From an uncultured Corynebacterium sp. (GTDB taxonomy: Bacteria; Actinomycetota; Actinomycetes; Mycobacteriales; Mycobacteriaceae), in NCBI GenBank assembly GCA_946223355.1, contig CAMIPB010000006.1:15675-79674 (forward strand): a stretch of DNA of 64,000 nucleotides, in the 5' to 3' direction. This document shows positions 8,806 through 27,412 of this stretch, one piece after another. Position 1 is the stretch's first letter. Every line of letters begins with the position of its first letter. The notes beneath the pieces are model-generated. The model did no database searches, was not told where the DNA came from, and saw nothing but the letters and a program-made list of their open reading frames with translations. Both the position numbers and the translations under genes were made by a program.

Positions 8806-9150
8806 TCACTTTAACGTGATATGCAAGTGTTCGTGCATGCGCTCGTCCACGTCCGCGATGGTGTCATCAGCAAAGTGGCCAGGGTTCCATACCCAATTAA
8901 GGTGAACCCCGCCGAGGGTCTTCCCCTTGTCGGTAATGCGCATCCCGGTGAGACCCTCGACAGTGAGCGCCGTAGATACGGAAATGACCTTCCCGGTGCG
9001 CGCGATCAACATGAACGTCGATCTCCGCTCCCCGAGCTGGGACTGTCTCGAAAATGGTTCCGCCGATCTAGCGCATCATCGCCCACGCCGAGGATGAAGC
9101 CACCGCCTTTCTCAATGCGTGGAAGCGTGCCGGCATTAACCCACCTAAAC
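8806..9150 (-). pseudogene. Possible frameshifted gene remnant (unknown family)
   Basis: Two minus-strand frames give contiguous protein-like translations (...LPRIEKGGGFILGVGDDA... then ...MLIARTGKVISVSTALTVEGLTGMRITDKGKTLGGVHLNWVWNPGHFADD...) interrupted by a frameshift. The opposing plus ORF 8821..9186 has R/P/S-rich wrong-frame composition. Confidence 0.25.
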
Positions 9151-9182
9151 CACCACAAATCCACGTTTGCTGGGCGCAAGCC

Positions 9183-9443
9183 CTAAAATCCGTTGCGCGC
9201 AGCATTCAACCGTAGTTCCTGTTTGAGCATCATCTCATTGAGAATCAATGTTGCATCAAACATATCTTCCTCAGTATTCGGCTCATAGCTTGGTAACTTT
9301 GGCTTGAAGTTGGGATCCTTTGGCCCCGCACCCCAACCAACTATCTTTGACGCGCCCGGGCGTTGATTCTTGGTTGCGTCGAAGTTCTTAAAAATGTTCT
9401 TAAGCGCCATCTTTCCTCTCCTCACTATTTTCGTCGTCTGCAA
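9183..9443 (-). CDS. Small hypothetical protein, downstream of and co-oriented with the tandem-YbjN gene
   Basis: 86-aa ORF in the AT-rich region. No recognisable motif. Confidence 0.3.
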   Translation of the reverse strand: MQTTKIVRRGKMALKNIFKNFDATKNQRPGASKIVGWGAGPKDPNFKPKLPSYEPNTEEDMFDATLILNEMMLKQELRLNAARNGF

Positions 9444-10536
9444 AGAGTGACATCTGAACCTCTACAGCAGATGTCGGCCAAGTGTCCGGATTTCCGCAGC
9501 ACTCTTCGAAGTCATCTTCGCCTCCTCCAGCATCCTCACCATAGAAAACCCTGATTTTTCCGTCTAGGTAGGTCGGAAAAGTCCTTTCGGTTGAACATTT
9601 TCGGAGGTACGAAATCGTCTCCCGATACTGGTGGGCCACGCTGCAATGCTTTCGAAATGCATCGTCAATTGCAACCGCGAGTTGCGCCGGAGACAACCCA
9701 TTGTTGATACGCACGCAACTTTCTAGCCATAAGTCATAAGCAAAATTCTCTTCCCTCACCACCGCATGCGTTACCCCACCAGCTCGGTTTATATCGTTAG
9801 CCAGCTTTCCTAGTTCGAAAAAATTGTCTTCTCGGATATTTAGGCCTACCTCGAGCGAAATAGTAAGTGATTCCCCATCATCGGATATATACACAAAAAA
9901 CGTGCCTTCCCCGGCCATAAAAACCAGGTAAAACTTGTCCGAGGTGTAGTAAATTTCCTTGATTCCCTTAGAACGCAATACAGCTTCAACCCGGTCCAAG
10001 GTCACTGGTTTCACAAACGGGACATCACTCTCGCCGAAAAGCTCTGTGATGCCCTCGGGCAAACTAAGTAGTTCAGGGAACTCCTCGAGCAGATCTGCAA
10101 AGGCTCCATGAGCAGCCGCAAATCCCCCTGATATCGCGGTGTGCAGCTGCGCTTCAGTCATACCGATACGAGTGGCATAACGCGATTTTAATGACAACTC
10201 CAGCTTGCCTTCGTCATCCAAAGAATAATGAATCTGCGGCCAGGCCGTTCCCCGATTGCGCCTCATGATCTGATGGAGCAAATCATTCTCGCGTGATGCA
10301 TCAAGCGCCACCCAAGGGCGTGCGTCCACCATCAGGAAAGGATCCAGTTGATCATATAAGGCAACTTCCGCGAGAAATGGCTTGAATCCGACGAGGATGC
10401 GATCTTCAAATTCTCCACTCATCTCAAAATGAAAGCCCAATTTAGTAAGCGTTTCCATGATCCGCTCTACGTTTACTGGGCGTACCTTATCCGCACTATC
10501 CAATCCATCAGCCGAATTAAATGAATTTTCTTTCAT
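9400..10536 (-). CDS. Tandem YbjN-domain protein with an acidic Cys-containing C-terminal tail
   Basis: Two repeated modules of about 140 aa resemble the YbjN/T3SS-chaperone-like fold (...LGFHFEMSGEFEDRILVGF... and ...IKEIYYTSDKFYLVFMAGEGTFFVYISDDG...). Start set at the ATG at 10536, preceded by a GAGGAG RBS; the track start at 10548 is a GTG. Confidence 0.45.
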   Translation of the reverse strand: MKENSFNSADGLDSADKVRPVNVERIMETLTKLGFHFEMSGEFEDRILVGFKPFLAEVALYDQLDPFLMVDARPWVALDASRENDLLHQIMRRNRGTAWPQIHYSLDDEGKLELSLKSRYATRIGMTEAQLHTAISGGFAAAHGAFADLLEEFPELLSLPEGITELFGESDVPFVKPVTLDRVEAVLRSKGIKEIYYTSDKFYLVFMAGEGTFFVYISDDGESLTISLEVGLNIREDNFFELGKLANDINRAGGVTHAVVREENFAYDLWLESCVRINNGLSPAQLAVAIDDAFRKHCSVAHQYRETISYLRKCSTERTFPTYLDGKIRVFYGEDAGGGEDDFEECCGNPDTWPTSAVEVQMSLFADDENSEERKDGA

Positions 10537-11035
10537 CACATCCACCACTCCTCACATGTTTGTTACCTTCTCCGGGCTGACGAAGACAAAGATAAGCGAC
10601 AGGCTAGACATGAGTTTTCTTCATTCGAACATTAATTTCGAAAACTATCTGGCACCCCATAAACTTTCACACCTTCAAATTTTGAAAGTTTCGGTAGAAG
10701 TTTGATCTACTCTACGTCGTGTTCTCCCCAACCCCAGCAAACTAATTCCCCACTGAGCTGCATTAACTTCCAGCAAGACCGTATCCCCCGCCTCTCCCGC
10801 AGCCTCCTCGGCTTTCGTTCAGTGTTTTTGAATAACCGCAACGTTTTAGACTTGAACTTGAGGCTCTTTATGCTTCGCCTGATCACCGGAATGAAGTGAG
10901 AATTGAACTAAATCCAACTGTAGCTCTTCGGATTTTGAACTAGAATGAATTTGTAGCGTGATGGAAAGTAAAAAACTGTGAAACAATAATGCAACTGGAT
11001 TCAATCCCGAAACAACGTGAAGGAAAACTCTCAGA

Positions 11036-11371
11036 ATGCCTAAGAAATTCCCCGAAAGTCTCAAGAAAAAGGTGGTTCATTACTACTTGTCGTCCCCCGA
11101 TATCACATACGAAGCAGCCGCTAGAAAGTTCGATATCTCGATTTCATCGGCGCGCCTCTGGGTGAAAAAGCACGAAGACTCCCATGTCTCTGAACCGCCT
11201 GAAATTTCCCAAGCCGATGAGAACTCACAATCACCCCATTTGGAAACTACTCACCCAACTAACGGTGCAAACGAGGTGCATCTCTCGCCAGCTCTGCACA
11301 TAAACGGCAACGCCTATTTCCAAAATTCAACAATTCAAGCGGTTAACAACCATCACCCTAAGAGAATTTAA
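11036..11371 (+). CDS. HTH protein resembling the N-terminus of an IS3-family transposase OrfA (likely IS remnant)
   Basis: MPKKFPESLKKKVVHYYL...AAARKFDISISSARLWVKKHED is typical of the IS3/IS911 OrfA HTH. The remainder is diverged and low-complexity, and there is no OrfB or inverted repeats. AT-rich context next to the CRISPR array. Confidence 0.4.
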   Translation: MPKKFPESLKKKVVHYYLSSPDITYEAAARKFDISISSARLWVKKHEDSHVSEPPEISQADENSQSPHLETTHPTNGANEVHLSPALHINGNAYFQNSTIQAVNNHHPKRI

Positions 11372-11484
11372 TGAAATTTAAACCGTGACAGCAGGGAGCT
11401 ACGGCGCTTAGTTCCATCGCAAATATTTGCTCCAGCAACGCACTTTGATACCCTAGCCACAGCGTAGGAGGTTCACTTTCCATC

Positions 11485-14403
11485 GCTGGGGTTCAATTCT
11501 CTAAACCCCTGATAGACTTCACCCTCAGGCAGGCCATAAAATTCCGCAGCTGGGGTTCAATTCTCTAAACCCCTGATAGACTTCCCCAAACCAAAGTAAA
11601 GACAATAAGCAGGCTGGGGTTCAATTCTCTAAACCCCTGATAGACTTCCTGCTGCTAAGGCTGGGCTTGATGTTCAGCTGGGGTTCAATTCTCTAAACCC
11701 CTGATAGACTTCAAGTTAAGGAACCGATCCGCTGATAGCTGCTGGGGTTCAATTCTCTAAACCCCTGATAGACTTCTAGCCTGCTCTGACCAGGCCACTG
11801 ATACGCTGGGGTTCAATTCTCTAAACCCCTGATAGACTTCGATACCCGGCACCGACTCGTCGATTGTGGCTGGGGTTCAATTCTCTAAACCCCTGATAGA
11901 CTTCATGTGGCGTAAACAGTTGGCCGACCAAGGCTGGGGTTCAATTCTCTAAACCCCTGATAGACTTCGAAGCCTAACGGCGCCCCGGATGAGATTGCTG
12001 GGGTTCAATTCTCTAAACCCCTGATAGACTTCCCCGCCAGCGCCGCCTGCTCAATGGCACGCTGGGGTTCAATTCTCTAAACCCCTGATAGACTTCGGGT
12101 GGTTGTAGTGGCTTTTGTCGATACGCTGGGGTTCAATTCTCTAAACCCCTGATAGACTTCACGCAATAAGCTGAGCGCCCGGTTGCCCGCTGGGGTTCAA
12201 TTCTCTAAACCCCTGATAGACTTCAGACACATTCCTGCCGCATTGGTCATGGGCTGGGGTTCAATTCTCTAAACCCCTGATAGACTTCGTTCGGCCACAC
12301 TGCCGCCGAATTTCGGGCTGGGGTTCAATTCTCTAAACCCCTGATAGACTTCGAGCGATACGAGGACCGCGTCACCCTCTGCTGGGGTTCAATTCTCTAA
12401 ACCCCTGATAGACTTCTGAGCAGTACACCTGCGATTGCCCACACGCTGGGGTTCAATTCTCTAAACCCCTGATAGACTTCACCCCTGACTACATCGGGGC
12501 GTCCTCTAGCTGGGGTTCAATTCTCTAAACCCCTGATAGACTTCCTCCGGGTGTCCTTCCACCTGCCAGATGGCTGGGGTTCAATTCTCTAAACCCCTGA
12601 TAGACTTCAACGACCTATTCCCACAGTTCGGCATCAGCTGGGGTTCAATTCTCTAAACCCCTGATAGACTTCATGACGTGAAACGGGGCGCGGTCGTCGG
12701 GCTGGGGTTCAATTCTCTAAACCCCTGATAGACTTCCGCTCCACAGTGGCCCGCGCACTACGACGCTGGGGTTCAATTCTCTAAACCCCTGATAGACTTC
12801 AAGTGGAATTCCATAGGCTTTCGCGTAGGGCTGGGGTTCAATTCTCTAAACCCCTGATAGACTTCCTGCCGGCACTATCCCGCGTGCGGAGATGCTGGGG
12901 TTCAATTCTCTAAACCCCTGATAGACTTCACTCGCATGCGCTCCGCTACCGCGTCCAGCTGGGGTTCAATTCTCTAAACCCCTGATAGACTTCCGGTGTA
13001 CCTTACTTGGGCAGTCAGCTGGCTGGGGTTCAATTCTCTAAACCCCTGATAGACTTCCGGTGTACCTTACTTGGGCAGTCAGCTGGCTGGGGTTCAATTC
13101 TCTAAACCCCTGATAGACTTCTAATCGCTGCAACCACAGCAGCAGCGTCCGCTGGGGTTCAATTCTCTAAACCCCTGATAGACTTCGATTCGAGGACACC
13201 CCTGTTTGCGCCCAGCTGGGGTTCAATTCTCTAAACCCCTGATAGACTTCTAATCGCTGCAACCACAGCAGCAGCGTCCGCTGGGGTTCAATTCTCTAAA
13301 CCCCTGATAGACTTCGATTCGAGGACACCCCTGTTTGCGCCCAGCTGGGGTTCAATTCTCTAAACCCCTGATAGACTTCACCGCCTGGGTGTTTACCTCT
13401 GGGTTCTGCTGGGGTTCAATTCTCTAAACCCCTGATAGACTTCAACATGCCTAAAGGAGGTGGACACATGAGCTGGGGTTCAATTCTCTAAACCCCTGAT
13501 AGACTTCATTACCGACCTGGCCAAACATCGACTTGGCTGGGGTTCAATTCTCTAAACCCCTGATAGACTTCAATCGACGCGACGACAAACTATACCCTCG
13601 CTGGGGTTCAATTCTCTAAACCCCTGATAGACTTCCTAACTCAGGGACACACCCTGCGCTCAAGCTGGGGTTCAATTCTCTAAACCCCTGATAGACTTCC
13701 AACCCTCAAATTCGTCAAGTCAATGAAGCTGGGGTTCAATTCTCTAAACCCCTGATAGACTTCAAAGGCAGCGTCTGAGGTGTCTCGAAAGGCTGGGGTT
13801 CAATTCTCTAAACCCCTGATAGACTTCGTCGCCCTTTTCTCCCTTAGGGCCACGGGCTGGGGTTCAATTCTCTAAACCCCTGATAGACTTCAACGCAGCC
13901 GTGACCCCTTGTAAAATCAGCTGGGGTTCAATTCTCTAAACCCCTGATAGACTTCTCGTAGACGGTGGAGTGCTGCTACTAACGCTGGGGTTCAATTCTC
14001 TAAACCCCTGATAGACTTCTTTCGCATGGGCCGGTGGAGATTGCTGCGCTGGGGTTCAATTCTCTAAACCCCTGATAGACTTCGCGCATTCATCGCGCCG
14101 CAAACCGCACAGCTGGGGTTCAATTCTCTAAACCCCTGATAGACTTCTTCATCGATTCCGTTAAGGTCTGACTGTGCTGGGGTTCAATTCTCTAAACCCC
14201 TGATAGACTTCCCCGACAACCTGGCAACCTCGGCATGTGGCTGGGGTTCAATTCTCTAAACCCCTGATAGACTTCTAGCGCCACCGCTTTACCGGTCAGG
14301 ACGGCTGGGGTTCAATTCTCTAAACCCCTGATAGACTTCCCCAGCAGAACATCTGGTGCGAGCTTTCGCTGGGGTTCAATTCTCTAAACCCCTGATAGAC
14401 TTC
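11485..14403 (+). CRISPR. CRISPR array, type II-C: 46 identical 36-nt repeats GCTGGGGTTCAATTCTCTAAACCCCTGATAGACTTC, 45 spacers (42 of 28 nt, 3 of 29 nt)
   Basis: Every repeat and spacer boundary was counted by hand. Period is 64 nt, with 65 nt at three positions. The inferred crRNA strand is + (see findings). No degenerate terminal repeat. Confidence 0.97.
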
Positions 14404-14406
14404 AGT

Positions 14407-14440
14407 GACGCCCAAAAATGGGCGTTTAACTGGAGTTTTT
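14407..14440 (+). terminator. Hairpin ACGCCCA-AAA-TGGGCGT followed after about 10 nt by TTTTTT, between the array and the cas2 stop
   Basis: Perfect 7-bp inverted repeat. Possible terminator for array read-through on the + strand; the U-tract is not immediately adjacent to the stem. Confidence 0.3.
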
Positions 14441-14453
14441 TGGTGATCCTACT

Positions 14454-14795
14454 TTAAAAAATCGTCATTTGTTCGGGTTTTTCTTCATAAGAATCCTCTT
14501 TTGAGTTGGAATATCGAATGGTTTTTGACCATTGGGTGTCAGTGACGGAAAGAATGCGAACATCACCACCAGCCGGAAGGTTTTGTTTAATGGTTTTCAC
14601 TGTTGATGCGATTCGAGAAGCAAGGGGAAAGTACTGGACGTAAACGCTGAATTGGGCGCGACAAAACCCTACATCCTGGAGCATGTTCCGGAATCTAGTA
14701 GCTTCCCGCCGTTCCTTTTTCGTCAGAACCGGTAGGTCAAACATCACTACGCACCACATAGGTTCACTACCTTTCGCCGGCATGACAAACCCCAC
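14454..14795 (-). CDS. cas2: CRISPR-associated endoribonuclease Cas2
   Basis: Cas2 core VVMFDLPVLTKKERREATRFRNMLQDVGF. The real start is probably an internal ATG (MPAKG or MWCVV), giving a small overlap with the cas1 stop. Confidence 0.9.
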   Translation of the reverse strand: MGFVMPAKGSEPMWCVVMFDLPVLTKKERREATRFRNMLQDVGFCRAQFSVYVQYFPLASRIASTVKTIKQNLPAGGDVRILSVTDTQWSKTIRYSNSKEDSYEEKPEQMTIF

Positions 14796-15678
14796 ACCAG
14801 TGTGGAACGACTAGGTCGCGAACTTCGTTCTCAACATAAAGCCCATACTGCTGGGCAAACTCAGAGAAGACGGTAGGTAGTGATTTACCGTCTTTTTGGA
14901 ACGTACCGGCAATTCCCTCGTTCAGGGTTAGTTTTTCTTCCCTAGCCAAACTCTTCAACGGCGCCAACTCAGTGAAAACTATCTGGTCAACCATCGGCCG
15001 GAATGGCTCCATCAAATCATCCACCAAAGCGAAGGAATTAGAACGTCCACGGTGAAACACACCGAGTGCCCCTGACAAACCGGCTGAAACTACCGCCCGT
15101 ATTCCGTGCCCGCGAAGCAACGTGTATCCGTAATCAAGCGCCCCATTAACTCCGTCACCCAAGCCGGGATGTCGACCGTTAAAACCTTGGGTACGTAGCT
15201 TCTGCCAATAAATGCGAGCAGCTAAAGCTTCGGAGTTCTCGGAGTCGCCTGTCTTTACTCCTCGCGAAAGTTCGATCAACCTATTCGATTTTTCACCCGT
15301 TATCGATTGTAGAGCTTCGGACTGACCTCGAATTTTAGCTTGAACTATCCTCTTCCACGCTTGTTTCGTTCTAGGAGTGGACAGCCTTGACTGTGCCCTT
15401 TGACGTGCGCCAATTCTCGTATGCTCCCTCCAAGGGTATGTGCCAGCGACAGGAACATTACGCCAATCACAAACGAGAAGCGCCACATCAGCTTCGCTCA
15501 ACTTAGTCAGCGCTGCACCCGAAATAGTAGTTTGTACCCCGATTAGCACGACTGCAACCTGCACCAACGGAATAGGTACAGGTTTCTCACCATCACGCTG
15601 GACAACGATGTGACCGCGTTCGTACCCAATCTTTCCGATCAAATTTGAACAATCGATTACTCGCCATCCAGCATCCAT
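14767..15678 (-). CDS. cas1: CRISPR-associated integrase Cas1 (type II)
   Basis: 303 aa. Sits directly 3 nt after the cas9 stop, followed by cas2 and the array. Confidence 0.92.
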   Translation of the reverse strand: MDAGWRVIDCSNLIGKIGYERGHIVVQRDGEKPVPIPLVQVAVVLIGVQTTISGAALTKLSEADVALLVCDWRNVPVAGTYPWREHTRIGARQRAQSRLSTPRTKQAWKRIVQAKIRGQSEALQSITGEKSNRLIELSRGVKTGDSENSEALAARIYWQKLRTQGFNGRHPGLGDGVNGALDYGYTLLRGHGIRAVVSAGLSGALGVFHRGRSNSFALVDDLMEPFRPMVDQIVFTELAPLKSLAREEKLTLNEGIAGTFQKDGKSLPTVFSEFAQQYGLYVENEVRDLVVPHWCGVCHAGER

Positions 15679-15681
15679 TGG

Positions 15682-18600
15682 TTATCTCACTTTCCAGGAA
15701 ACCGGTAGGTGTGCCGCACTTTCAAGTCTCGGACGGCCAAGTGCATCACGCCGTATCACAGCCACATCGCCCTGTGCTAGCAATGCATTCACTGCAGGTC
15801 GCCACCCCGGAGAATCGACTATTTTTCTCACGTCCTCATTTGAGTCCTTATTTAAGCCCTCAGCGCTAACTTGTACAGGTCGTAGGCGGAACTTAGAGTC
15901 ACTGTAAAAGCCATCCAAACTCCACCTGCGAGTTAAACCGATTTCTTGTTGGAACGTACCAATCTGGCCGGTGTTGAACGAGGCAGGATTGATAAGTAGT
16001 TCGTCATCGACGACAACCCAGCCCAGGTAGGTAGCAGTGCCTTCACGAAGCGCTTTGCGTAGCTTCGCTTCTGCTTGACGCATGGAGATAGTTTGCGGTG
16101 GCAGCTCCACAGAAAACACATCTTTTGTGCGATGTTTAGCTAGATCCACGTTATAGACGCGGAGCATCGCGTAGACAGGTTTCTTTCCTCCGTCGATGCG
16201 ATAAATACGCGCGTGATGGAAACGGCTGAGTTCGGCATAACCCCCGCGAACTTTGATCGCACCGGCATTAACTGGGAAGACTTCAATTTCATCATCTGCA
16301 TTCAGGTGGCTGCCGTTGACTCGGATTGTCCGATCAGGGTCTTCGGGAAGACCGTCTTTCCAGTTAAAATCCGGATGTCTGGTCAGCGCACACCACAATG
16401 CCTCCGTTGCAGCCCGATCGATTGTCTCCGTTGGTAAAGCACTGCCAACCTTTACCCGCGCCAGCTCACCAATTGTGTCCTCGTGAACACGGCCATTGCC
16501 AACACGTAAACGTAAATTACGTTTAACAGCGATTCGGTCCTCCGATAGAGCTTTCTGCAGCATCGGAGCCAAGATACTCATCTGTTTCTTCCAGCGATTC
16601 CAAGAAGTTCGATGCGATGCAGTTCCGCCAGAGTATTCCTTCCACTGATTCGTGCCGTTGGTGTACTCGGCCGATTCCCTTAGGTTATTGCGCGTTGCGA
16701 GGGCCTCCGCAACAAATGGAGTTGTTAAACAAATGACAGCGGCATCTACCGCATGGTGGCGGCGATCTAAACGGGACTTCCCTGGCCCATCAATAAACTG
16801 CAACTTGCCTGAAATACCTGCAGCCCTACGAGCTGAAGCGGTTAAGGAACCACGATAAACATTGACCTTGGTTTCTTCATCTGAAAAACGCTGGGCAATA
16901 CGGCCACGCAACTCATTTGCCATCCAAGCCACGGATTCCATAGAGCGAGCATCGATAGGATCGTCCACTGTAGTGCGTTTAAATCGTGAGACTACCTCAC
17001 TGCGGAACTTATTAAATTCCGCTTTCTTCATGCCGCGGTCTTCGTTCCAGTGCTTTGTACGTTCAACAGCTTCCTTCACACTCACGCCCGGAATAGCGCT
17101 CTGTTCAGCCCAAACGGAGAACACAGCATTGGACTTGGAATGGTTGCACCTGTGACACACTGCAACGAGGTTCTCCCGCCTATTAGTCGAACCCTCCCCT
17201 TTGCGCGGGACTATGTGATCCATTTCTGAATTGTGGAATGTAATTGGAGAACCGCAATAAGCGCACTGGCCGTTTTGGCGCTGTACTGATTGGTAACGCC
17301 ACAATGCAGCACGGGAATGCTTGACATCATTGCCAAACTTGTCACTGAGTTCCGCGAACAACTCGCGGTTTTTCTGCGCTCTTCTATTGTTATCGCGATC
17401 AATTTTCCGAGCCTTGGATTCCGAAATAAAGCCATCACGTACGTGCTCGATCACGATGCGCTCAGGCGCGCCCCACTCATCCGTAGCGGCTTCGATCCAT
17501 CTCGCAACTTCCTTTAGAACACGATCGACTGCGGGATTGCCCACGGGCTCACCGATTCGCGGTGAAGGCGGAGCCCAATCTTTGGGAATACCAAACTCAT
17601 TCTTCCTGGCAGTATAGAGGTCTACACCATCGCTGATCATTCGCTCAGTCAATCGACGAAGTGTGTCTTCGCTATACGCTGCCCGACCAATAGGTAGATG
17701 GAGAAGATCAAGTTTTTCGTGTTCATCATCGGAGATCGAGGCGAAATATGCCCGAACACTAGCGCCTTCTTCAGTATCCAAATCAAGTGAGTCCGCGTTG
17801 GACAATGCTTTCAACATCGCTGCCCTATCAGCATCGGATACTTCTTTCCACCACTTCCCTAGTGACTTTGGCTTCGCAGATTCAATCACCCGATTGGTGT
17901 CATGGACCGGTGGACGAGCACCTGCCCGCTCACCGTCATCGGTCATTTTCGCAGTACCCTGAAGCTGGCCACGGTCAATTCCCAACAGTTCAGCGATGGC
18001 AAGCCACGTTGGTTCAACCTTGGCTGGCAGGTTTACCAGATGATCGAAAACCAACTTTCGTTGATTATTGGTGAGCTCAAAAGAATTCTCCCCGTCTCGG
18101 ATTCGGAGATTGCCAATGAGCGCTGCAATTCGATACCGCTGGAAAGCATCTGACGCTTTGAGTGCTCGGTCTAACGATGGCTGCAGTGGATCTTTACCGA
18201 CCCTTCCAACCTGAGCACCCTTTGGGGATTCTGCATCAAATACAAGATCGATGATCTTCTTGCGCAGTGAATCATCGATCCCCTGTTTCTCACAGATCTT
18301 GTTGATTTCTCGTGCGTGATCGACCTGCTGCAAGCGAGCGGAAATAAGCGCATGATTGATTTCGTCTTGAGGCTTCTTTTTGTCCTTGCCTTTTCCACCA
18401 CCACGAAGGCGATCAACCCCAAGGTTTGCGCACATCACCACCTGAGCAACAGTGGCTTCATCGGGGATCTTAATCTTCTTCGATTCCTCGATGCCCTTCT
18501 TAATCTCGACAAACGCATCACTCGGTTCGCCTGGTGCATAGAGCGAACGGACTTTCTTGTAGGGATTTCGCCAACCGCGGTGATGCGCGATATGCCGAAT

Positions 18601-18984
18601 AGCCAAAGAAAGCATCTCACCTTGTTCGGCTTCATTTTCTGTTCGTTCCGTGGCTAGGCGGACTCGTGCTTTCCACGGAAGATAAGGATCCTCGTAGGAC
18701 TCGTTTGGAAGGGTCTTCCAATCTTGTTCAACCAAGAATTTCTCGAGCCTAACAATGCGCTTCTTCCGGCGCCGATAAAGTCTACGAGTACGACGAGCAA
18801 CTCCGGACGAGGCCAACCTAGTTGTCGCAGACTTCTGCTGGTCTGGATCGAGACCCGAATCATGAATATGAGAAACCAAGCTCAAAATTCCTGCTGGCAT
18901 ATCTTTTTCATCAAGTTCAATGGCTGCGAAACCGATTGAATGGGTACCAACGTCAATTCCCGCAACATAACGCCGCGAATCCAT
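15682..18984 (-). CDS. cas9: Cas9 (type II-C, about 1100 aa)
   Basis: RuvC-I IDVGTHSIGFA, Arg-rich bridge helix RRTRRLYRRRKKR, HNH CAYCGSPITFHNSEMDHIVPR...AVCHRCNHSKSN, and RuvC-III RHHAVDAAVI. Start set at the ATG at 18984 (MDSRRYVAGIDVGT) behind a GAGAGGA RBS. The track start at 19020 lies inside the tracrRNA terminator stem. Confidence 0.95.
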   Translation of the reverse strand: MDSRRYVAGIDVGTHSIGFAAIELDEKDMPAGILSLVSHIHDSGLDPDQQKSATTRLASSGVARRTRRLYRRRKKRIVRLEKFLVEQDWKTLPNESYEDPYLPWKARVRLATERTENEAEQGEMLSLAIRHIAHHRGWRNPYKKVRSLYAPGEPSDAFVEIKKGIEESKKIKIPDEATVAQVVMCANLGVDRLRGGGKGKDKKKPQDEINHALISARLQQVDHAREINKICEKQGIDDSLRKKIIDLVFDAESPKGAQVGRVGKDPLQPSLDRALKASDAFQRYRIAALIGNLRIRDGENSFELTNNQRKLVFDHLVNLPAKVEPTWLAIAELLGIDRGQLQGTAKMTDDGERAGARPPVHDTNRVIESAKPKSLGKWWKEVSDADRAAMLKALSNADSLDLDTEEGASVRAYFASISDDEHEKLDLLHLPIGRAAYSEDTLRRLTERMISDGVDLYTARKNEFGIPKDWAPPSPRIGEPVGNPAVDRVLKEVARWIEAATDEWGAPERIVIEHVRDGFISESKARKIDRDNNRRAQKNRELFAELSDKFGNDVKHSRAALWRYQSVQRQNGQCAYCGSPITFHNSEMDHIVPRKGEGSTNRRENLVAVCHRCNHSKSNAVFSVWAEQSAIPGVSVKEAVERTKHWNEDRGMKKAEFNKFRSEVVSRFKRTTVDDPIDARSMESVAWMANELRGRIAQRFSDEETKVNVYRGSLTASARRAAGISGKLQFIDGPGKSRLDRRHHAVDAAVICLTTPFVAEALATRNNLRESAEYTNGTNQWKEYSGGTASHRTSWNRWKKQMSILAPMLQKALSEDRIAVKRNLRLRVGNGRVHEDTIGELARVKVGSALPTETIDRAATEALWCALTRHPDFNWKDGLPEDPDRTIRVNGSHLNADDEIEVFPVNAGAIKVRGGYAELSRFHHARIYRIDGGKKPVYAMLRVYNVDLAKHRTKDVFSVELPPQTISMRQAEAKLRKALREGTATYLGWVVVDDELLINPASFNTGQIGTFQQEIGLTRRWSLDGFYSDSKFRLRPVQVSAEGLNKDSNEDVRKIVDSPGWRPAVNALLAQGDVAVIRRDALGRPRLESAAHLPVSWKVR

Positions 18985-19000
18985 GAAATGTCCTCTCGGA

Positions 19001-19092
19001 TAGAAAAAGACCGACGCCATAAGGCGCCGGCCGGAGCATTCAGTTCCGCTAACTAGGCGAAACCTTACTGAGGTTCAATTCTCGTTTTAGAG
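19001..19092 (-). ncRNA. Candidate tracrRNA: anti-repeat GAGAAUUGAACCUCAG, a nexus-like UAAGGUUUCGCCUAGUUAGCGG, and a terminator CCGGCGCC-UUAU-GGCGUCGG-UCUUUUUC
   Basis: Top-strand 19069..19084 GGTTCAATTCTC duplicates the repeat core. The minus-strand RNA would pair 16 bp with the 5' end of the +strand crRNA repeat (CUGGGGUUCAAUUCUC). Possible sigma70-like promoter TTGCAC-N17-TAAACT on the minus strand at about 19095..19125. Confidence 0.6.
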
Positions 19093-19155
19093 TTTAACAA
19101 TCAAATTTCTGTGGTGCAAGTGAAAACCTGAATAAATTCTGTGTACGATGTAGTG

Positions 19156-21996
19156 CTACTTCACCACCAGATTCACCATACGACCAGGCACGACAATCTC
19201 CTTGACAACGTTCTTGCCTTCGGCGAGTTCCTGGACGCGAGAGTCGGCCTTGGCGATACCTGCGATGGTGTCCTTATCGGCGTCGGCAGGCACCATGATG
19301 CGGGCCTTGACCTTGCCATTGATCTGGACTGGCACCTCCACCTCATCATCCACGAGCCACTTGTCTTCATAGGTTGGGAAGTCCTCGAAGGTGATGGTGT
19401 CGGTGTTGCCCAGGCGCTTCCAGAGTTCCTCAGCGATGTGTGGGGCAACGGGGGAGGCCATGATGACCAATGGCTTGACGGCGTCGATAGGCGCCTGGGC
19501 CTTGGAGTAGGTCTTGGTGAGGTAATTGACGTACTCAATGAGCTTGGCCACCACGGTATTAAGACGCAGGTGCTCGTAGTCATCACGCACACCGGCGACG
19601 GTACGGTGCAGAGCCTTCAGGTCTTCATCGGAAAGCTGCTGTTCAGTGACGTTAAGCTCACCGGTCTCCTCATTGACCACAAGACGCCACAGGCGCTGCA
19701 AGAAGCGCTGCGCACCCACGACGTCTTTGGTGGCCCATGGGCGAGAGGTATCCAATGGACCCATAGACATCTCGTAAACGCGCAGGGTATCGGCACCATA
19801 GTCGCGGCAGATCTCGTCAGGGGAGACGGAGTTCTTCAGCGACTTACCCATCTTGCCGTATTCCTGGTTAACCTCTTCGCCCTGGTAGAAGAACTTGCCG
19901 TCCTTTTCTTCTACTTCTTCAGCAGGGACGTAAACACCACGGGAATCGGTGTAGGCATAAGCCTGGATGTACCCCTGGTTGAACAGGCGGCGGTAAGGCT
20001 CCTTGGAGGAAACGTGGCCCAGGTCAAAAAGCACCTTGTGCCAGAAACGAGCGTAGAGCAGGTGAAGGACCGCGTGCTCAACGCCGCCGACGTAGAGATC
20101 CAAGCCGCCGGGATCATTAGCGCCGTACTTGTCTGGGCGCGGACCAGTCCAGTAACGCTCGTTTTCAATGTCCACGAACTTCTCGTCGTTGGTGGGATCA
20201 ACATAACGCAGCTGGTACCAAGAAGAACCTGCCCACTGAGGCATGACGTTGGTATCGCGGAAGTAGGTCTTCGGACCATCACCGAGGTCGAGTTCCACCT
20301 CAACCCATTCGCACGCCTTTGCCAGTGGAGGCTGCGGCTCGGTGTTGGAATCATCCGGGTCAAAGGAGACTGGCTTGTAGTCTTCCACCTCTGGCAGCTG
20401 AACAGGCAGCATGGATTCAGGAATCGGGTGAGCGACACCGTCTGCGTCGTAGACGATAGGGAAGGGCTCGCCCCAGTAGCGCTGGCGGGCAAAGAGCCAG
20501 TCACGTAGCTTGTACTGGACTTTTTCCTGGCCCAGGTTTTGTTGGGACAGCCAATCAATGGTCTGCGCAATGGCCTCCGCTTTGTTTTTGCCGTTCAAAT
20601 CCAGCCCAGAATCGTTCGCGGAGTTCACCAGGGTGCCGTCTTCGGTATAAGCTTCTTCGGCGATATTTCCGCCAGAAACAACTTCCTTGATAGGAAGCCC
20701 GAATTCGGTGGCAAACTCGTAGTCACGGGTATCGTGCGCCGGAACAGCCATGATAGCGCCGGTGCCGTAGCCAGTGAGCACATAGTCTGCGATGAACACT
20801 GGAATCTGCTCGCCGTTAACCGGGTTGGTTGCGGTAACACCGAGGTAAACGCCGGTCTTTTCTTTGTTCTCCTGGCGCTCCAAGTCAGATTTCGCGGCGA
20901 TGTCTGCGCGGTAAGCCTCTACGGCTTCCTTCGGATCATCGTGGCCGTAAGTCCAGCGAGAATCAACGTCCGCGTCATAAGTGACAGGGGAGACGATGGC
21001 GTCGACAAGCTCGTGCTCTGGCGCCAGCACCATGTAGCTCGCGCCAAACAAAGTGTCCGGACGGGTGGTAAATACGGTGATCTTGTGACCCTCGCAGGCG
21101 AAATCCACCTCGGCGCCACGGGAACGGCCAATCCAGTTACGCTGCATGGACTTAACCTTCTCAGGCCAATCCAGCAACTCCAGGTCCTCGAGCAGACGAT
21201 CGGAGTATTCAGTAATGCGCATCATCCACTGCTTCAAATTCTTACGGAAAACAGGGAAATTGCCGCGCTCAGACTTACCGTCCGCGGTTACCTCTTCATT
21301 TGCCAGCACTGTACCCAAACCAGGACACCAGTTCACAGTGGAGTTAGAGAGGTATACCAGGCGGAATTCGTCGATGGCGCTGCGCTTGTCGACGTCGCTT
21401 AGCTCCGCGTATGCACGACCATCCTTCGTGGTGCGGGCTCCGGACTCCAGTTCGCTAATCAATTCCGTGATGGGGCGAGCTTTTTGCTGCTCATCATCGA
21501 ACCAGGAGTTATAAATTTGCAAGAAGATCCACTGAGTCCACTTGTAGAAGTCCTCATCAGTGGTGGCCACTGAACGTCGCGAGTCATGGCCCAAGCCGAG
21601 CGAACCAAGCTGACGGCGCATATTCTCGATGTTCGCCATCGTCGTGGTGCGTGGGTGCGTACCCGTTTGAATCGCGTACTGCTCGGCAGGCAACCCGAAC
21701 GCGTCATAGCCCAAGGTGTGCAGGACGTTCTTGCCTAGCATCCGGTTATAGCGCGCGAATACATCCGTGGCGATATAACCCAGCGGGTGGCCTACGTGCA
21801 GGCCAGCACCGGAAGGGTAAGGGAACATGTCTTGGACAAATAGCTTGTCTTCCGGCAGCGGTGCGTCCGAAGCTAGGTCACCTACTGGGTTCGGCGTGTA
21901 AAAGGTGCCGTTATCCTTCCAGTAGCTCTGCCAGGACTGCTCAATCTCATTTGCCAGCTGCGGCGTATAACGGTAGGACTCGCTTGGGTTTGTCAT
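19156..21996 (-). CDS. leuS: Leucine--tRNA ligase
   Basis: 946 aa. HIGH-type motif [16 protein letters not shown] and KMSKS motif KMGKS, plus the CP1 editing domain region. Confidence 0.97.
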
Positions 21997-22151
21997 GGTT
22001 ACACAGTGTAATAGGCGCCGCGCCGAGAGGGGCAGTTAACCCCTTACGGCGATACACACAGTTTCTCCCTCAGATTGGCCAATTCCATGGGACATCGTTT
22101 CCCTGGACCACAAGGCAATCAACAAGTTGATGAAGAACATCCGCTAAAGAA

Positions 22152-22421
22152 CTAAAAGTAGTGGTAACGACAAGAAACGATCAAGACTTCTTCTGCCTCT
22201 AGTTTGTAAACCAACCGGTGCTCATCTGTGATTCTGCGCGCCCAGTACTGTGACAGTCCATGCTTTAAAGGCTTAGGCTTTCCCAGCCCTTGGTGGCCAC
22301 CCCGAAGGATGTCCTTGATCAAGGCATTAACTCGCTTGAGAGTCTTGGGATCATTCTTTTGCCACCAGAGATACTCCTCCCAGCCATGTGCAGTCCATGA
22401 GATGTTGGTTACCTCCCCCAT
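22152..22421 (-). CDS. yoeB: Type II toxin YoeB/Txe (RelE superfamily)
   Basis: ...EEYLWWQKNDPKTLKRVNALIKDILR...GKPKPLKHGLSQYWARRITDEHRLVYK...CRYHY matches the YoeB family. Confidence 0.85.
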   Translation of the reverse strand: MGEVTNISWTAHGWEEYLWWQKNDPKTLKRVNALIKDILRGGHQGLGKPKPLKHGLSQYWARRITDEHRLVYKLEAEEVLIVSCRYHYF

Positions 22422-22427
22422 GTCCTT

Positions 22428-22679
22428 TCACTCCTCATCTTCGATAAGGGCGTGACGTTTCGTTTCACCACGCTCGGCAGCTTCAATTGATTGCAGCAAC
22501 CGCTTCGCATTCGCTGGCGAGCGCAGCAGGTAGGCAGTTTCCTTGAGCGATTCGTATTCAGCCATGGAGACGATGACAGCTGGCTCCTTTCCCCGACGCT
22601 GGATGACCACCTCCTCGCGGTCATCACACACCATGTCCAAAACAGCCGCGTAGTTTGCTCGTGATTCCGAGTAACTCAT
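22428..22679 (-). CDS. yefM: Antitoxin YefM/Phd family
   Basis: MSYSESRANYAAVLDMV...AVIVSMAEYESLKETAYLLRSPANAKRL. Start trimmed to the ATG at 22679; it lies 6 nt upstream of yoeB. Confidence 0.85.
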   Translation of the reverse strand: MSYSESRANYAAVLDMVCDDREEVVIQRRGKEPAVIVSMAEYESLKETAYLLRSPANAKRLLQSIEAAERGETKRHALIEDEE

Positions 22680-22811
22680 CATAATCATTACCAACACCCC
22701 TTAAAGTACAAAGTTTCTGTACCTGAGGTTACCTTTCTCCGTCGTGTTATTCAATAGCCAGGCCACAAGGGCCTTGCCCTCTTAGACTCCGACGGCACTA
22801 GTGTTGGTTCC

Positions 22812-23459
22812 ATGACTCCACGCGTAGTATCCACCAACGTTGCTGTCCGCCGCGAGGATCCCTCCGGCAGACATGATTACACCGGAATAGACAAACAACC
22901 GCGAGAGCTTATCGACGTCGTCAAGCCCGGGCCCAACTACGGCGACGGCTCCGGGGTCGTGGCCGATAGCATCGGGGACCAGAAGCACCACGGCGGCGCA
23001 GACAAGGCCATCTATGCCTTTGCGCGCGAGGAGCTGGATTGGTGGGAGGATCAGCTGGGCCGTAGTCTGCCGTCGGGAAGCTTTGGCGAGAACCTCACTA
23101 CCGAAGGCATCGTGTGGAAGGACGTCCTGATCAACCAGCGCCTACGCATTGGCAGCACGCTGCTGGAGGTCTCCGTTCCGCGTCAACCCTGCGCCACATT
23201 CTCAGGCTGGATAGGGGAGCGAGGCTGGCTGAAAACCTTCACCCAACACGGCGAAGCCGGCGCCTACCTGCGGGTTATTGAACCCGGGCAGATAAACACC
23301 GGCGAGAAAATAGAGCTTCTCGACGCCCCCGCCCACGACATCACCATGGGCATGGCTTTTGCTGCCAAGATGGGGGACAAGGAGCTTGCCCGGCGCGTGG
23401 TTGAAGCAAACGTTCTGCCCGCCATTCACCACGAGAAGCTGGTCAAGATCGTGGATTAG
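22812..23459 (+). CDS. MOSC domain-containing protein (YiiM-like)
   Basis: GFGENLTTEGIVW...RIGSTLLEVSVPRQPCATF matches the MOSC beta-barrel and conserved Cys region. Confidence 0.7.
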   Translation: MTPRVVSTNVAVRREDPSGRHDYTGIDKQPRELIDVVKPGPNYGDGSGVVADSIGDQKHHGGADKAIYAFAREELDWWEDQLGRSLPSGSFGENLTTEGIVWKDVLINQRLRIGSTLLEVSVPRQPCATFSGWIGERGWLKTFTQHGEAGAYLRVIEPGQINTGEKIELLDAPAHDITMGMAFAAKMGDKELARRVVEANVLPAIHHEKLVKIVD

Positions 23460-26632: not shown

Positions 26633-27412
26633 ATGTCTGTCGTAAAAATAAAAAAGGAATGGGTATCCGAAGCCAGACTGAACCCATTCCTAAAAGTAGT
26701 CGCAAACGACGAAGAGAAGGCCTTAGCACTGTACGAACTTGATCGCCGCCTTTGTGCAGCACTTTTTCAAGAAATTGCCTACATTGAAGTGGCCCTTCGC
26801 AATTCGATGACCAGATACCTTGAAAAAGCCTACGGGGAAGACTGGTATACAAAGATCGAAATTGGTTTTGACCAACGTGTGCGGGAAAACCTAAGCGAAT
26901 CTTGGGACAGCCTGCCTAGCCGCTATACCGCTAAAGGCACACCTCGGAATAGGAAACTTGGGGGTAGATTGATTGGCGCCTCCATGTTTCGAACCTGGAC
27001 AAACATGTTAGATAAGGGAGGGCTCACGGGCCTTCAACCGCCATTTGAAGCGGCTGATCATGACCGAATTTGGACTGAAGAAGCTATCCTCGCGGTATTT
27101 AGAGGTGCAAGGACTGTAGCCAAGCAGGATCAGGACTACCAGACAAATGGCCTTACCAGGGAATGGGTTTACAAGAAAGTCTTTCCCATTAGGCAAATAA
27201 GAAATCGAATAGGGCACCACGAATCAGTTGTCCCAAGAGGTGTTCCGATTCCGGGCACAGAAACCCGCCTCACCGCGCGTGACTGTCACAATTCCTGCAT
27301 TGATGTTGCGAAAATGCTTGACCGCGATCTAGCCACCTACCTCGAGTCCCTTTCCATTAACTCCTTACTCGACGAACTCGATGGATTCTTCATAGCTGAG
27401 GACACTAGGTGA
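26633..27412 (+). CDS. Abi-like (AbiD/AbiF, Abi_2 family) HEPN-domain protein, a candidate abortive-infection/defence gene
   Basis: C-terminal Rx4HH motif IRQIRNRIGHHE is characteristic of the Abi2/HEPN family. Located in a low-GC islet. Confidence 0.5.
   Translation: MSVVKIKKEWVSEARLNPFLKVVANDEEKALALYELDRRLCAALFQEIAYIEVALRNSMTRYLEKAYGEDWYTKIEIGFDQRVRENLSESWDSLPSRYTAKGTPRNRKLGGRLIGASMFRTWTNMLDKGGLTGLQPPFEAADHDRIWTEEAILAVFRGARTVAKQDQDYQTNGLTREWVYKKVFPIRQIRNRIGHHESVVPRGVPIPGTETRLTARDCHNSCIDVAKMLDRDLATYLESLSINSLLDELDGFFIAEDTR

What the first reader, a model, noticed from the sequence alone, without database searches (positions are those of the whole stretch)
11485..14403. Each repeat ends in an extended -10-like element (TGaTAGACT), suggesting leaderless, repeat-driven crRNA transcription and roughly 24-nt guides
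On the + strand every repeat ends ...CCCCTGATAGACTTC|spacer. This is TG-N-TAGACT, which matches the extended -10 consensus TGnTAnnnT at the invariant positions. It lies 3 nt before the spacer.

By analogy to Neisseria meningitidis II-C arrays, where the -10 sits at the repeat 3' end, transcription would initiate about 4–6 nt into each 28-nt spacer. Mature crRNAs would then carry about 22–24 nt of spacer without RNase III-dependent 5' trimming.

The absence of a degenerate terminal repeat or an obvious leader promoter is consistent with this. It also independently supports the + strand as the crRNA strand.
Basis: inference. Interest (0 to 1): 0.6.

Follow-up and report, generated by a model that had tools for sequence, protein, structure and literature searches.

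The report
Promoter-like motif inside every CRISPR repeat
Each repeat of this Cas9-type (II-C) CRISPR array ends in a promoter-like TGATAGACT motif that probably starts transcription of the next spacer, a mechanism already shown in Neisseria and Campylobacter and here conserved across the actinobacterial Cas9 relatives, so it is a sound but largely expected finding.

Summary
The array at 11485-14403 has 46 identical 36-nt repeats. Each carries TGATAGACT at repeat nt 26-34 on the + strand, two nt before the spacer.

The + strand is the crRNA strand. Three independent results support this:
- a tracrRNA upstream of cas9 pairs with repeat nt 2-17;
- a + strand terminator follows the last repeat;
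- the published CdCas9 guide scaffold starts ACTGGGG.

In 51 distinct repeats from 66 actinobacterial II-C loci, T1, A2 and T6 of the hexamer never change and TG is kept in 46 of 51. Hexamer position 3 varies freely. The repeat:anti-repeat helix never reaches this region.

Repeat-embedded promoters are the best reading (about 0.78). The expected start is spacer nt 3-5, giving guides of about 24-26 nt rather than 22-24.

- a vestigial repeat at 11421-11456 keeps only the -10-like element;
- the conserved block is larger than a -10 needs, so Cas1-Cas2 recognition of this leader-proximal repeat end is probably a second constraint.

No RNA data were available. The mechanism is known, so this is a new member of a known kind.

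The parts
11485..14403 (+). CRISPR array: 46 identical 36-nt repeats and 45 spacers (28-29 nt). The crRNA strand is +.
11510..11518 (+). Extended -10-like element TGATAGACT of repeat 1 (repeat nt 26-34). The same element recurs in all 46 repeats at about 64-nt steps; the last is at 14393-14401. The predicted start for spacer 1 is about 11523-11525.
   Evidence: Conservation across relatives.
11421..11456 (+). Vestigial 'extra' repeat. Only TGATACCCT (11446-11454) survives, in the exact array register. 11457-11484 would then be an oldest, 46th spacer.
14397..14441 (+). Hairpin formed by the last 7 nt of the final repeat plus the cas2-proximal flank, ending in U6. It reads as an intrinsic terminator on the crRNA strand and lies in the presumed integration leader.
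   Evidence: dG -25 kcal/mol, z -4.6. Clade-wide counterpart.
14454..14795 (-). cas2. The gene caller on the identical contig L081 places it at what corresponds to 14454-14759 here.
14767..15678 (-). cas1
15682..18984 (-). cas9, 1100 aa, with the real start at ATG 18984. It belongs to the CdCas9/AnaCas9 clade.
19004..19085 (-). tracrRNA, about 80 nt. The anti-repeat GAGAATTGAACCTCAG at 19083-19068 pairs with repeat nt 2-17. The terminator stem is at 19032-19009, followed by U5.
19091..19119 (-). tracrRNA promoter: TTGCAC, a 17-nt spacer, then TAAACT with an extended TG (TGTTAAACT, 19099-19091).
11036..11371 (+). Context only: a 111-aa transposase-type HTH ORF on the crRNA strand that ends 113 nt before the array. 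It is a possible source of read-through transcription.

Best explanation
This is a type II-C CRISPR-Cas9 locus of the CdCas9/AnaCas9 (actinobacterial) clade. On the - strand it reads tracrRNA, cas9, cas1, cas2, array.

Each 36-nt repeat carries a -35-independent, extended -10 promoter (TGATAGACT) at nt 26-34 of the crRNA (+) strand. RNA polymerase would start about 5-7 nt after the hexamer, at spacer nt 3-5. Every spacer would then be transcribed from the repeat in front of it, giving a primary 5' end and a 24-26-nt guide with no 5' processing.

The next repeat supplies nt 2-17, which pair with the 5' end of the tracrRNA. Transcripts run toward cas2 and stop at a hairpin plus U6 formed by the end of the last repeat and the flank.

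New spacers are presumably added at that cas2-proximal end. The oldest, cas-distal repeat has decayed to a bare -10 vestige.

Shown here:
- the sequence anatomy;
- the crRNA strand;
- the tracrRNA;
- the terminator-like structure, from its predicted fold;
- conservation of the motif across relatives.

Inferred:
- that RNA polymerase actually initiates at the repeats;
- the exact start site;
- the end at which spacers are added.

For: 1. All 46 repeats carry the motif at the same place. The chance of this placement is about 0.1%.

2. The + strand is the crRNA strand by three independent lines. The tracrRNA has its own promoter and terminator and is complementary to repeat nt 2-17. A + strand-only terminator follows the last repeat. 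The published CdCas9 scaffold starts ACTGGGG, and this Cas9 matches CdCas9 structure 6JOO at E=0.

3. In 51 distinct repeats from 66 loci with Cas9 34-66% identical to this one, a TAnnnT lies within the last 12 nt in every case. It is in the same register (2 nt from the repeat end) in 47 of 51, so T1, A2 and T6 are 51/51 in the hexamer-anchored alignment. TG is kept in 46/51, and hexamer position 3 is nearly free at 0.27 bit. Eleven hexamer variants are seen, including a perfect TGATATAAT in Gardnerella. An independent MAFFT alignment also makes T29 and A30 invariant.

4. The repeat:anti-repeat helix is only 12-22 bp. The tracrRNA promoter sits 2-8 nt upstream of it in 46 of 49 loci, against 5.7% at random positions. 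tracrRNA pairing therefore cannot explain conservation of repeat nt 26-34.

5. The cas-distal flanks are unrelated between loci, so no conserved external promoter exists there.

6. The vestigial repeat keeps 7 of 9 motif nt and 3 of 27 others. The two changed motif nt are hexamer positions 3 and 4. Similar 3'-only remnants in the same register occur in about a dozen relatives.

7. The leader carries an inverted copy of the repeat 3' half. That copy lacks an intact TAnnnT in 53 of 54 loci, with disruptions concentrated at T1 and T6. This is what avoidance of an antisense promoter would produce.

8. Precedent exists. C. jejuni repeats end in GGTAAAAT and TEX-enriched starts lie at spacer nt 5. 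N. meningitidis starts at the 6th nt. C. cellulolyticum has the same motif. A survey of 650 II-C systems treats a promoter in each repeat and acquisition at the last repeat as the general architecture.

9. The distance from hexamer end to next repeat is 30 nt here (2+28). It is also 30 nt in N. meningitidis and C. jejuni (0+30; spacer lengths from my own knowledge). That predicts the same guide length.
Against: There is no transcript data of any kind.

The conserved block is TGATAnACTT. Hexamer position 4 (A, 41/51), position 5 (C, 49/51) and the next T (45/51) are more conserved than a -10 element requires, and position 5 is not the consensus A. [quoted passage not shown] In type II-A, Cas1 directly reads bp 2-7 of that end, so integrase recognition could account for much of the conservation.

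The sequences are phylogenetically related, so invariance across 51 repeats is not 51 independent tests.

A generic sigma-70 scan did not call the repeats, because they have no -35.

Single-repeat mutations that break the -10 do occur in relatives, at roughly the neutral rate.

A same-strand ORF ends 113 nt upstream, and no terminator lies between it and the array.
Confidence: 0.78

Rival explanations
1. The conserved 3' end of the repeat is mainly a Cas1-Cas2 integration signal, since it is the leader-proximal repeat end. On this view its likeness to a -10 is incidental. The array would be transcribed as one pre-crRNA from outside, for example by read-through from the + strand ORF at 11036-11371, and then processed.
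For: - The block TGATAnACTT is more conserved than a -10 needs.
- The perfect repeat lies at the cas2-proximal end and the mutated repeat at the cas-distal end. That places the integration site next to this end of the repeat.
- The type II-A integrase reads bp 2-7 of the leader-proximal repeat end.
- A same-strand ORF with a weak promoter-like site at 10962-10990 lies upstream, with no terminator before the array.
Against: - TG and T1 lie 8-11 bp from the repeat end, outside the 2-7 bp read in type II-A.
- The vestigial repeat has lost the last two nt and hexamer positions 3-4 but kept TG, TA and T.
- The upstream flanks are not conserved among relatives.
- The leader's inverted copy specifically lacks T1 and T6.
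- Every II-C system examined experimentally with this motif initiates in the repeats.
Confidence: 0.13
2. Both apply: an external transcript and repeat promoters coexist. The repeat promoters would be weak and contribute little to crRNA levels.
For: - TAGACT matches TATAAT at only 4 of 6 positions, and there is no -35 (read from the sequence).
- Read-through from the upstream ORF is possible.
Against: - An extended TG compensates for a missing -35 (established promoter biology).
- The tracrRNA promoters of the same loci use similar hexamers.
- A 2.9-kb untranslated transcript would be exposed to Rho termination, which is the problem repeat promoters are thought to solve.
Confidence: 0.07
3. 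The motif is a chance match with no function.
For: A 5-base degenerate motif is short. It occurs 28 times elsewhere in the window.
Against: - The chance of this position and strand is about 0.1%.
- The motif is retained in all 51 distinct repeats of the clade while neighbouring columns vary.
Confidence: 0.02

Closest known systems
Repeat-embedded crRNA promoters of type II-C arrays in Neisseria meningitidis and Campylobacter jejuni (Zhang et al. 2013; Dugar et al. 2013)
   Same: - 36-nt repeat with an extended -10 at its 3' end on the crRNA strand.
- Array transcribed opposite to cas9-cas1-cas2.
- 30 nt from hexamer end to next repeat.
- No conserved upstream leader.
- Mutated repeat at the transcription-upstream end.
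   Different: - The hexamer ends 2 nt inside the repeat rather than at its last base, and spacers are 28 nt rather than 30.
- The hexamer is TAGACT (TAnACT in most of the clade), not TACAAT or TAAAAT.
- The host is a high-GC actinobacterium.
- The repeat:anti-repeat helix is only 16 bp.
- There is no experimental start-site mapping for this clade.
Corynebacterium diphtheriae Cas9 (CdCas9, PDB 6JOO) and Actinomyces naeslundii Cas9 (PDB 4OGC) systems
   Same: - Cas9 matches at E=0 and 8e-277 respectively.
- The repeat begins (A/G)CTGGGG.
- The repeat:anti-repeat duplex is short.
- The enzyme needs a guide of at least 21-22 nt.
   Different: - This Cas9 is about 61% identical to the C. diphtheriae/C. 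belfantii protein.
- The published work used synthetic sgRNAs and does not address how the native array is transcribed.
Clostridium cellulolyticum H10 type II-C array (Fedorova et al. 2020)
   Same: The last nine nt of the repeat resemble an extended -10. crRNAs of 23-26 nt of spacer were seen for every spacer, and the array is transcribed opposite to the cas genes.
   Different: The host is a Firmicute, the crRNAs were measured in E. coli, and promoter activity there is also only inferred.
Leader-driven type II-A arrays (Streptococcus pyogenes)
   Same: Cas9, tracrRNA and 36-nt repeats.
   Different: - Type II-A has one promoter in the leader.
- Type II-A acquisition is at the transcription-upstream end.
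- Type II-A has csn2 and needs 5' trimming.
- Type II-A has a leader-repeat hairpin at the first repeat, whereas here the hairpin is at the last repeat.

Membership tests
Type II-C CRISPR-Cas | A cas9-cas1-cas2 operon with no csn2 or cas4 | tested here: met
   Pfam hits for Cas9 domains, Cas1 and Cas2 on contiguous - strand ORFs from 18984 to 14454. leuS lies on one side and the array on the other.
Type II-C CRISPR-Cas | A tracrRNA with an anti-repeat complementary to the repeat | tested here: met
   The 16-nt anti-repeat at 19083-19068 (-) pairs with repeat nt 2-17 with one G:U. It has its own promoter and terminator. The same arrangement is found in 49 relatives.
Type II-C CRISPR-Cas | Cas9 of the II-C lineage | tested here: met
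   E=0 to CdCas9 6JOO and 8e-277 to AnaCas9 4OGC. The nearest database proteins are Corynebacterium Cas9 at 58-70% identity.
II-C repeat-embedded crRNA promoters (Nme/Cje type) | A -10 or extended -10 element at the 3' end of every repeat on the crRNA strand | tested here: met
   TGATAGACT at nt 26-34 of all 46 repeats. It is conserved in 51 of 51 distinct repeats of the clade.
II-C repeat-embedded crRNA promoters (Nme/Cje type) | Array transcribed opposite to the cas operon, toward the acquisition end | tested here: met
   Supported by sequence inference only: the direction of tracrRNA pairing, the + strand terminator after the last repeat, and the mutated first repeat in relatives. This agrees.
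II-C repeat-embedded crRNA promoters (Nme/Cje type) | Primary (5'-triphosphate) transcript starts inside each spacer | not testable with these tools
   No RNA data are accessible. No paper with start-site data for this clade was found in 10 literature searches.
II-C repeat-embedded crRNA promoters (Nme/Cje type) | A single repeat has promoter activity that is lost on mutating the -10 | not testable with these tools
   This needs a reporter experiment.
II-C repeat-embedded crRNA promoters (Nme/Cje type) | crRNA function independent of 5' processing | not testable with these tools
   Only indirect support: the predicted 24-26-nt guide exceeds the 21-22 nt that CdCas9 needs.

The most novel reading that the evidence does not exclude
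The actinobacterial II-C clade has an element at the acquisition end of the array that I did not find described. The cas2-proximal leader carries an inverted copy of the promoter-bearing 3' half of the repeat.

This inverted copy co-varies with the repeat across genera. It folds with the last repeat into a hairpin; here a U6 tract follows, and a T-rich tail follows in 25 of 57 loci. Its T1 and T6 positions are selectively broken.

It would insulate the cas genes from dozens of convergent repeat promoters and prevent an antisense promoter. It might also mark the integration site.
Probability: 0.35. Interest if true: 0.55.

Novelty: new member of a known kind. Interest (0 to 1): 0.3.

Why it matters
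The result extends the rule that each II-C repeat is its own promoter from Proteobacteria and Campylobacterota to the whole CdCas9/AnaCas9 clade: Corynebacterium, Actinomyces, Bifidobacterium, Gardnerella and Propionibacteriaceae.

It predicts the native guide length (24-26 nt) for these compact Cas9s. That is useful for designing guides and for using the endogenous systems in these genera.

It also shows one repeat end apparently serving two jobs, as a promoter and probably as an integrase site. That makes the two constraints separable by experiment.

It does not change the current picture of type II-C biology.

Tried and rejected
- **Rfam scan of 9000-23000:** no hit, not even for tracrRNA.
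- **Generic sigma-70 scan:** did not call the repeats because it requires a -35. Its two hits in the array are chance combinations of repeat and spacer.
- **Whole-window shuffle test for TGNTANNNT:** uninformative, because the array itself feeds the shuffles. I replaced it with the outside-array frequency.
- **Intra-repeat hairpin (GGG with CCC):** only 3 pairs and -0.35 kcal/mol, so rejected.
- **Depletion of -10-breaking SNPs in internal repeats of relatives:** 48 imperfect repeats out of 1481, which gives no power and shows no visible depletion.
- **Acquisition polarity from other contigs carrying the identical Cas9:** all three share the same spacers, so they give no information.
- **Terminator or structure between the upstream ORF and the array:** none found, z -0.49.
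- **Organism name:** the exact-sequence look-up returned no names. The genus Corynebacterium is inferred only from the nearest Cas9 relatives.
- **Papers not held:** Zhang et al. 2013 and Mir et al. 2018 could not be read, so I could not check whether their repeat alignments already include actinobacterial repeats.
Full report
**1. What is in the sequence**

The region 11485-14403 is a CRISPR array of 46 identical 36-nt repeats, GCTGGGGTTCAATTCTCTAAACCCCTGATAGACTTC. It holds 45 spacers: 42 of 28 nt and 3 of 29 nt.

Every repeat carries TGATAGACT at nt 26-34 on the + strand. The hexamer TAGACT is nt 29-34 and is followed by TC, then the spacer. The reverse strand of the repeat has no TAnnnT.

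Outside the array, TGnTAnnnT occurs 28 times in about 122 kb of both strands. A match at this end of the repeat on this strand has a chance of about 0.1%.

**2. The locus**

On the - strand the order is as follows:
- leuS (21996-19156);
- a tracrRNA;
- cas9 (true ATG at 18984, 1100 aa);
- cas1 and cas2;
- the array.

No csn2 or cas4 is present, so the locus is type II-C.

The Cas9 matches the C. diphtheriae Cas9 structure 6JOO at E=0 and the A. naeslundii Cas9 structure 4OGC at 8e-277. Its nearest named relatives, at 58-67% identity, are all from Corynebacterium. The organism itself has no name in the databases.

The tracrRNA lies at about 19085-19004 on the - strand:
- Its promoter is TTGCAC, a 17-nt spacer, then TAAACT with an upstream TG (TGTTAAACT, 19099-19091).
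- Its anti-repeat, GAGAATTGAACCTCAG (19083-19068), pairs with repeat nt 2-17 with one G:U.
- It ends with a stem-loop and a terminator with U5.

**3. Which strand makes crRNA**

Three independent lines point to the + strand:
- The tracrRNA, which has its own promoter and terminator on the - strand, is complementary to the + strand repeat.
- Directly after the last repeat, the + strand folds into a hairpin, AGACUUCAGUGACGCCCAAAAAUGGGCGUUUAACUGGAGU, ending in U6 (14397-14441; dG about -25 kcal/mol; z -4.6). On the - strand the same hairpin has no U tract after it.
- The published CdCas9 guide scaffold begins ACTGGGG.

The array is thus transcribed toward cas2 and opposite to the cas genes, as reported for II-C systems.

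**4. Comparative test of the motif**

A Cas9 alignment retrieved 80 actinobacterial II-C loci with Cas9 34-66% identical to this one. Sixty-five of them have usable arrays, almost all with 36-nt repeats and 28-nt spacers. Together with the window they give 51 distinct repeats.

Results from aligning those repeats on the hexamer:

| Position | Conservation |
|---|---|
| Hexamer T1, A2, T6 | 51/51 each |
| TG at -3/-2 | 46/51 |
| Hexamer position 3 | nearly free (0.27 bit) |
| Hexamer ends 2 nt before the spacer | 47/51 |

Because that alignment was anchored on a TAnnnT search in the last 12 nt of each repeat, the 51/51 is partly by construction. The informative results are that every repeat has such a hexamer and that 47 of 51 place it in the same register.

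Eleven hexamer variants occur: TAGACT, TATACT, TAAGCT, TAAACT, TACACT, TATGCT, TACGCT, TAGGCT, TATTCT, TAACAT and TATAAT. Gardnerella has a perfect TGATATAAT.

An independent MAFFT alignment also makes T29 and A30 invariant, along with T3, G4 and T9 in the tracrRNA-pairing part.

The middle of the repeat, nt 17-25, is poorly conserved.

**5. Why tracrRNA pairing does not explain it**

A tracrRNA was located in 49 loci:
- The repeat:anti-repeat helix is only 12-22 bp and starts at repeat nt 2.
- A TAnnnT lies 2-8 nt (mode 6) upstream of the helix in 46 of 49 loci, against 5.7% at random positions.
- It is TG-extended in 15 of 49, against 0.3% at random positions.

The tracrRNA therefore begins at its anti-repeat and cannot reach repeat nt 26-34.

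This also shows which promoters these loci use for an RNA that must be made. They are the same kind of hexamer, usually helped by a -35. The repeat cannot carry a -35, because nt 6-11 must pair with the tracrRNA. That fits the much higher TG frequency in the repeats (90% against 31%).

**6. The two ends of the array**

In crRNA orientation, the first (cas-distal) repeat is mutated in 26 distinct cases, mostly in nt 1-6. The last (cas2-proximal) repeat is almost always perfect. This matches the published II-C pattern:
- acquisition is at the last repeat;
- the first, 'extra' repeat is mutated in its first 15 nt;
- the first repeat still has to serve as promoter for the first spacer.

The cas-distal flanks are unrelated between loci, so no conserved external promoter sits there.

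In the window all 46 repeats are perfect. One unit further upstream, however, 11421-11456 retains TGATACCCT (11446-11454) in the exact register:
- It keeps 7 of 9 motif nt against 3 of 27 elsewhere.
- The two changed motif nt are hexamer positions 3 and 4.
- The binomial P is about 0.004 at a 30% background.

I noticed this after seeing the motif list, so the P value is indicative only.

About a dozen relatives have comparable remnants, in the same register, that keep only the 3' part of a repeat. I read 11421-11456 as the decayed extra repeat, which has lost everything except its promoter. On that reading 11457-11484 is a 46th and oldest spacer.

**7. The leader hairpin**

In 57 of 63 distinct loci, the flank next to cas2 pairs with the 3' half of the last repeat (median z -4.7 against shuffled flanks).

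The flank co-varies with the repeat. The duplex energy with a locus's own flank is -19.7 kcal/mol, against -11.1 with flanks from loci whose repeats differ (Wilcoxon P 5.5e-10).

In the window a U6 tract follows, as expected for a terminator, and several Corynebacterium loci have a T-rich run there.

The leader's inverted copy of the repeat lacks an intact TAnnnT in 53 of 54 loci. The breaks concentrate at two positions:
- T1 is Watson-Crick paired in 20 of 54, against 38 and 35 for its neighbours.
- T6 is Watson-Crick paired in 15 of 54, against 33 for its 5' neighbour; 14 of the rest are G:U pairs.

Avoidance of a promoter firing antisense into the array would produce this pattern. That gives indirect support for TAnnnT being promoter-active in this context. 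The lineages are not independent, and T6 is often near the loop, so I treat this as suggestive.

**8. Mechanism and numbers**

In C. jejuni the repeat ends in GGTAAAAT and TEX-enriched starts lie at spacer nt 5. In N. meningitidis transcription starts at the 6th spacer nt.

Here the hexamer ends 2 nt inside the repeat. Those distances, and the canonical 7 nt, then place the start at spacer nt 3-5. That leaves 24-26 nt of a 28-nt spacer. A purine lies within one nt of spacer nt 5 in 40 of 45 spacers.

The distance from hexamer end to next repeat is 30 nt. It is the same in the two proven systems (36-nt repeats and 30-nt spacers, from my own knowledge).

CdCas9 needs at least 21 nt of guide and works best with 22 nt, so no 5' trimming is needed.

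Its mention of RNase III-dependent 5' trimming is a slip. RNase III cuts the repeat:anti-repeat duplex (my own knowledge; describe RNase III cutting within the repeat).

**9. What weakens the case**

- No RNA data exist for this clade in the literature I could search.
- The conserved block is TGATAnACTT. Hexamer position 4 (A, 41/51), position 5 (C, 49/51) and the next T (45/51) are more constrained than a -10 needs.
- This end of the repeat abuts the integration leader, and in type II-A Cas1 reads bp 2-7 of that end. Integrase recognition is therefore a real second constraint and the main rival. It does not cover TG and T1, which lie 8-11 bp from the end, and it does not explain the vestigial element.
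- A same-strand transposase-like ORF ends 113 nt upstream, with no terminator in between. Some read-through into the array is possible.

**10. Verdict**

The mechanism is the known II-C one, so this is a new member of a known kind. My confidence in repeat promoters is 0.78.

The less expected item is the co-varying leader-last-repeat hairpin. I did not find it described, but I could not search exhaustively.

Noticed in passing
window 14397-14441; the cas2-proximal flanks of L001-L080: The flank between the last repeat and cas2 pairs with the 3' half of the last repeat in 57 of 63 distinct loci. It co-varies with the repeat across genera (own flank -19.7 kcal/mol against -11.1 for foreign flanks, P 5.5e-10). 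In the window it ends in U6, like a terminator. The inverted copy lacks an intact TAnnnT in 53 of 54 loci. I did not find this described for II-C.
   Followed up: partly
window 11421-11484: A vestigial repeat keeps only TGATACCCT (11446-11454) in the exact array register. It is followed by a 28-nt stretch that could be a 46th, oldest spacer. Similar remnants that keep only the repeat 3' end are present in about a dozen related loci.
   Followed up: partly
window 12994-13343: Spacer duplications. The spacer at 12994-13021 is repeated at 13058-13085. The pair at 13122-13150 plus 13187-13214 is repeated at 13251-13279 plus 13316-13343. This suggests unequal recombination between repeats. The same arrangement is present in the independent contig L081.
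   Followed up: partly
L025 and L027 (Actinomyces sp. S6-Spd3, A. marseillensis), locus coordinates about 14528-17473: The array together with its leader and hairpin is inverted relative to cas9-cas1-cas2. crRNA would therefore be co-directional with the cas genes. The repeat motif and the remnant repeat moved with the array.
   Followed up: no
window 19068-19083 and the region upstream of cas9 in 49 related loci: Anti-repeats in this clade are only 12-22 nt. This probably explains why an early survey found no anti-repeat in C. diphtheriae or Bifidobacterium. A helix this short raises the question of whether RNase III cuts it at all.
   Followed up: partly
window 11036-11371 (+): A 111-aa ORF with a transposase-type HTH (PF01527, weak) lies next to the old end of the array on the crRNA strand. 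No second transposase ORF was seen. It is probably an IS remnant.
   Followed up: no
window about 22152-22688 and about 26633-26984 (mapped from L081 gene calls): A PhdYeFM/YoeB toxin-antitoxin pair lies just beyond leuS, and an Abi_2-like gene lies further on. Other defence or addiction genes therefore sit near the CRISPR locus.
   Followed up: no
window 13444-13471: The spacer AACATGCCTAAAGGAGGTGGACACATGA looks like a ribosome-binding site followed by a start codon. It may have been taken from the start of a phage or plasmid gene.
   Followed up: no
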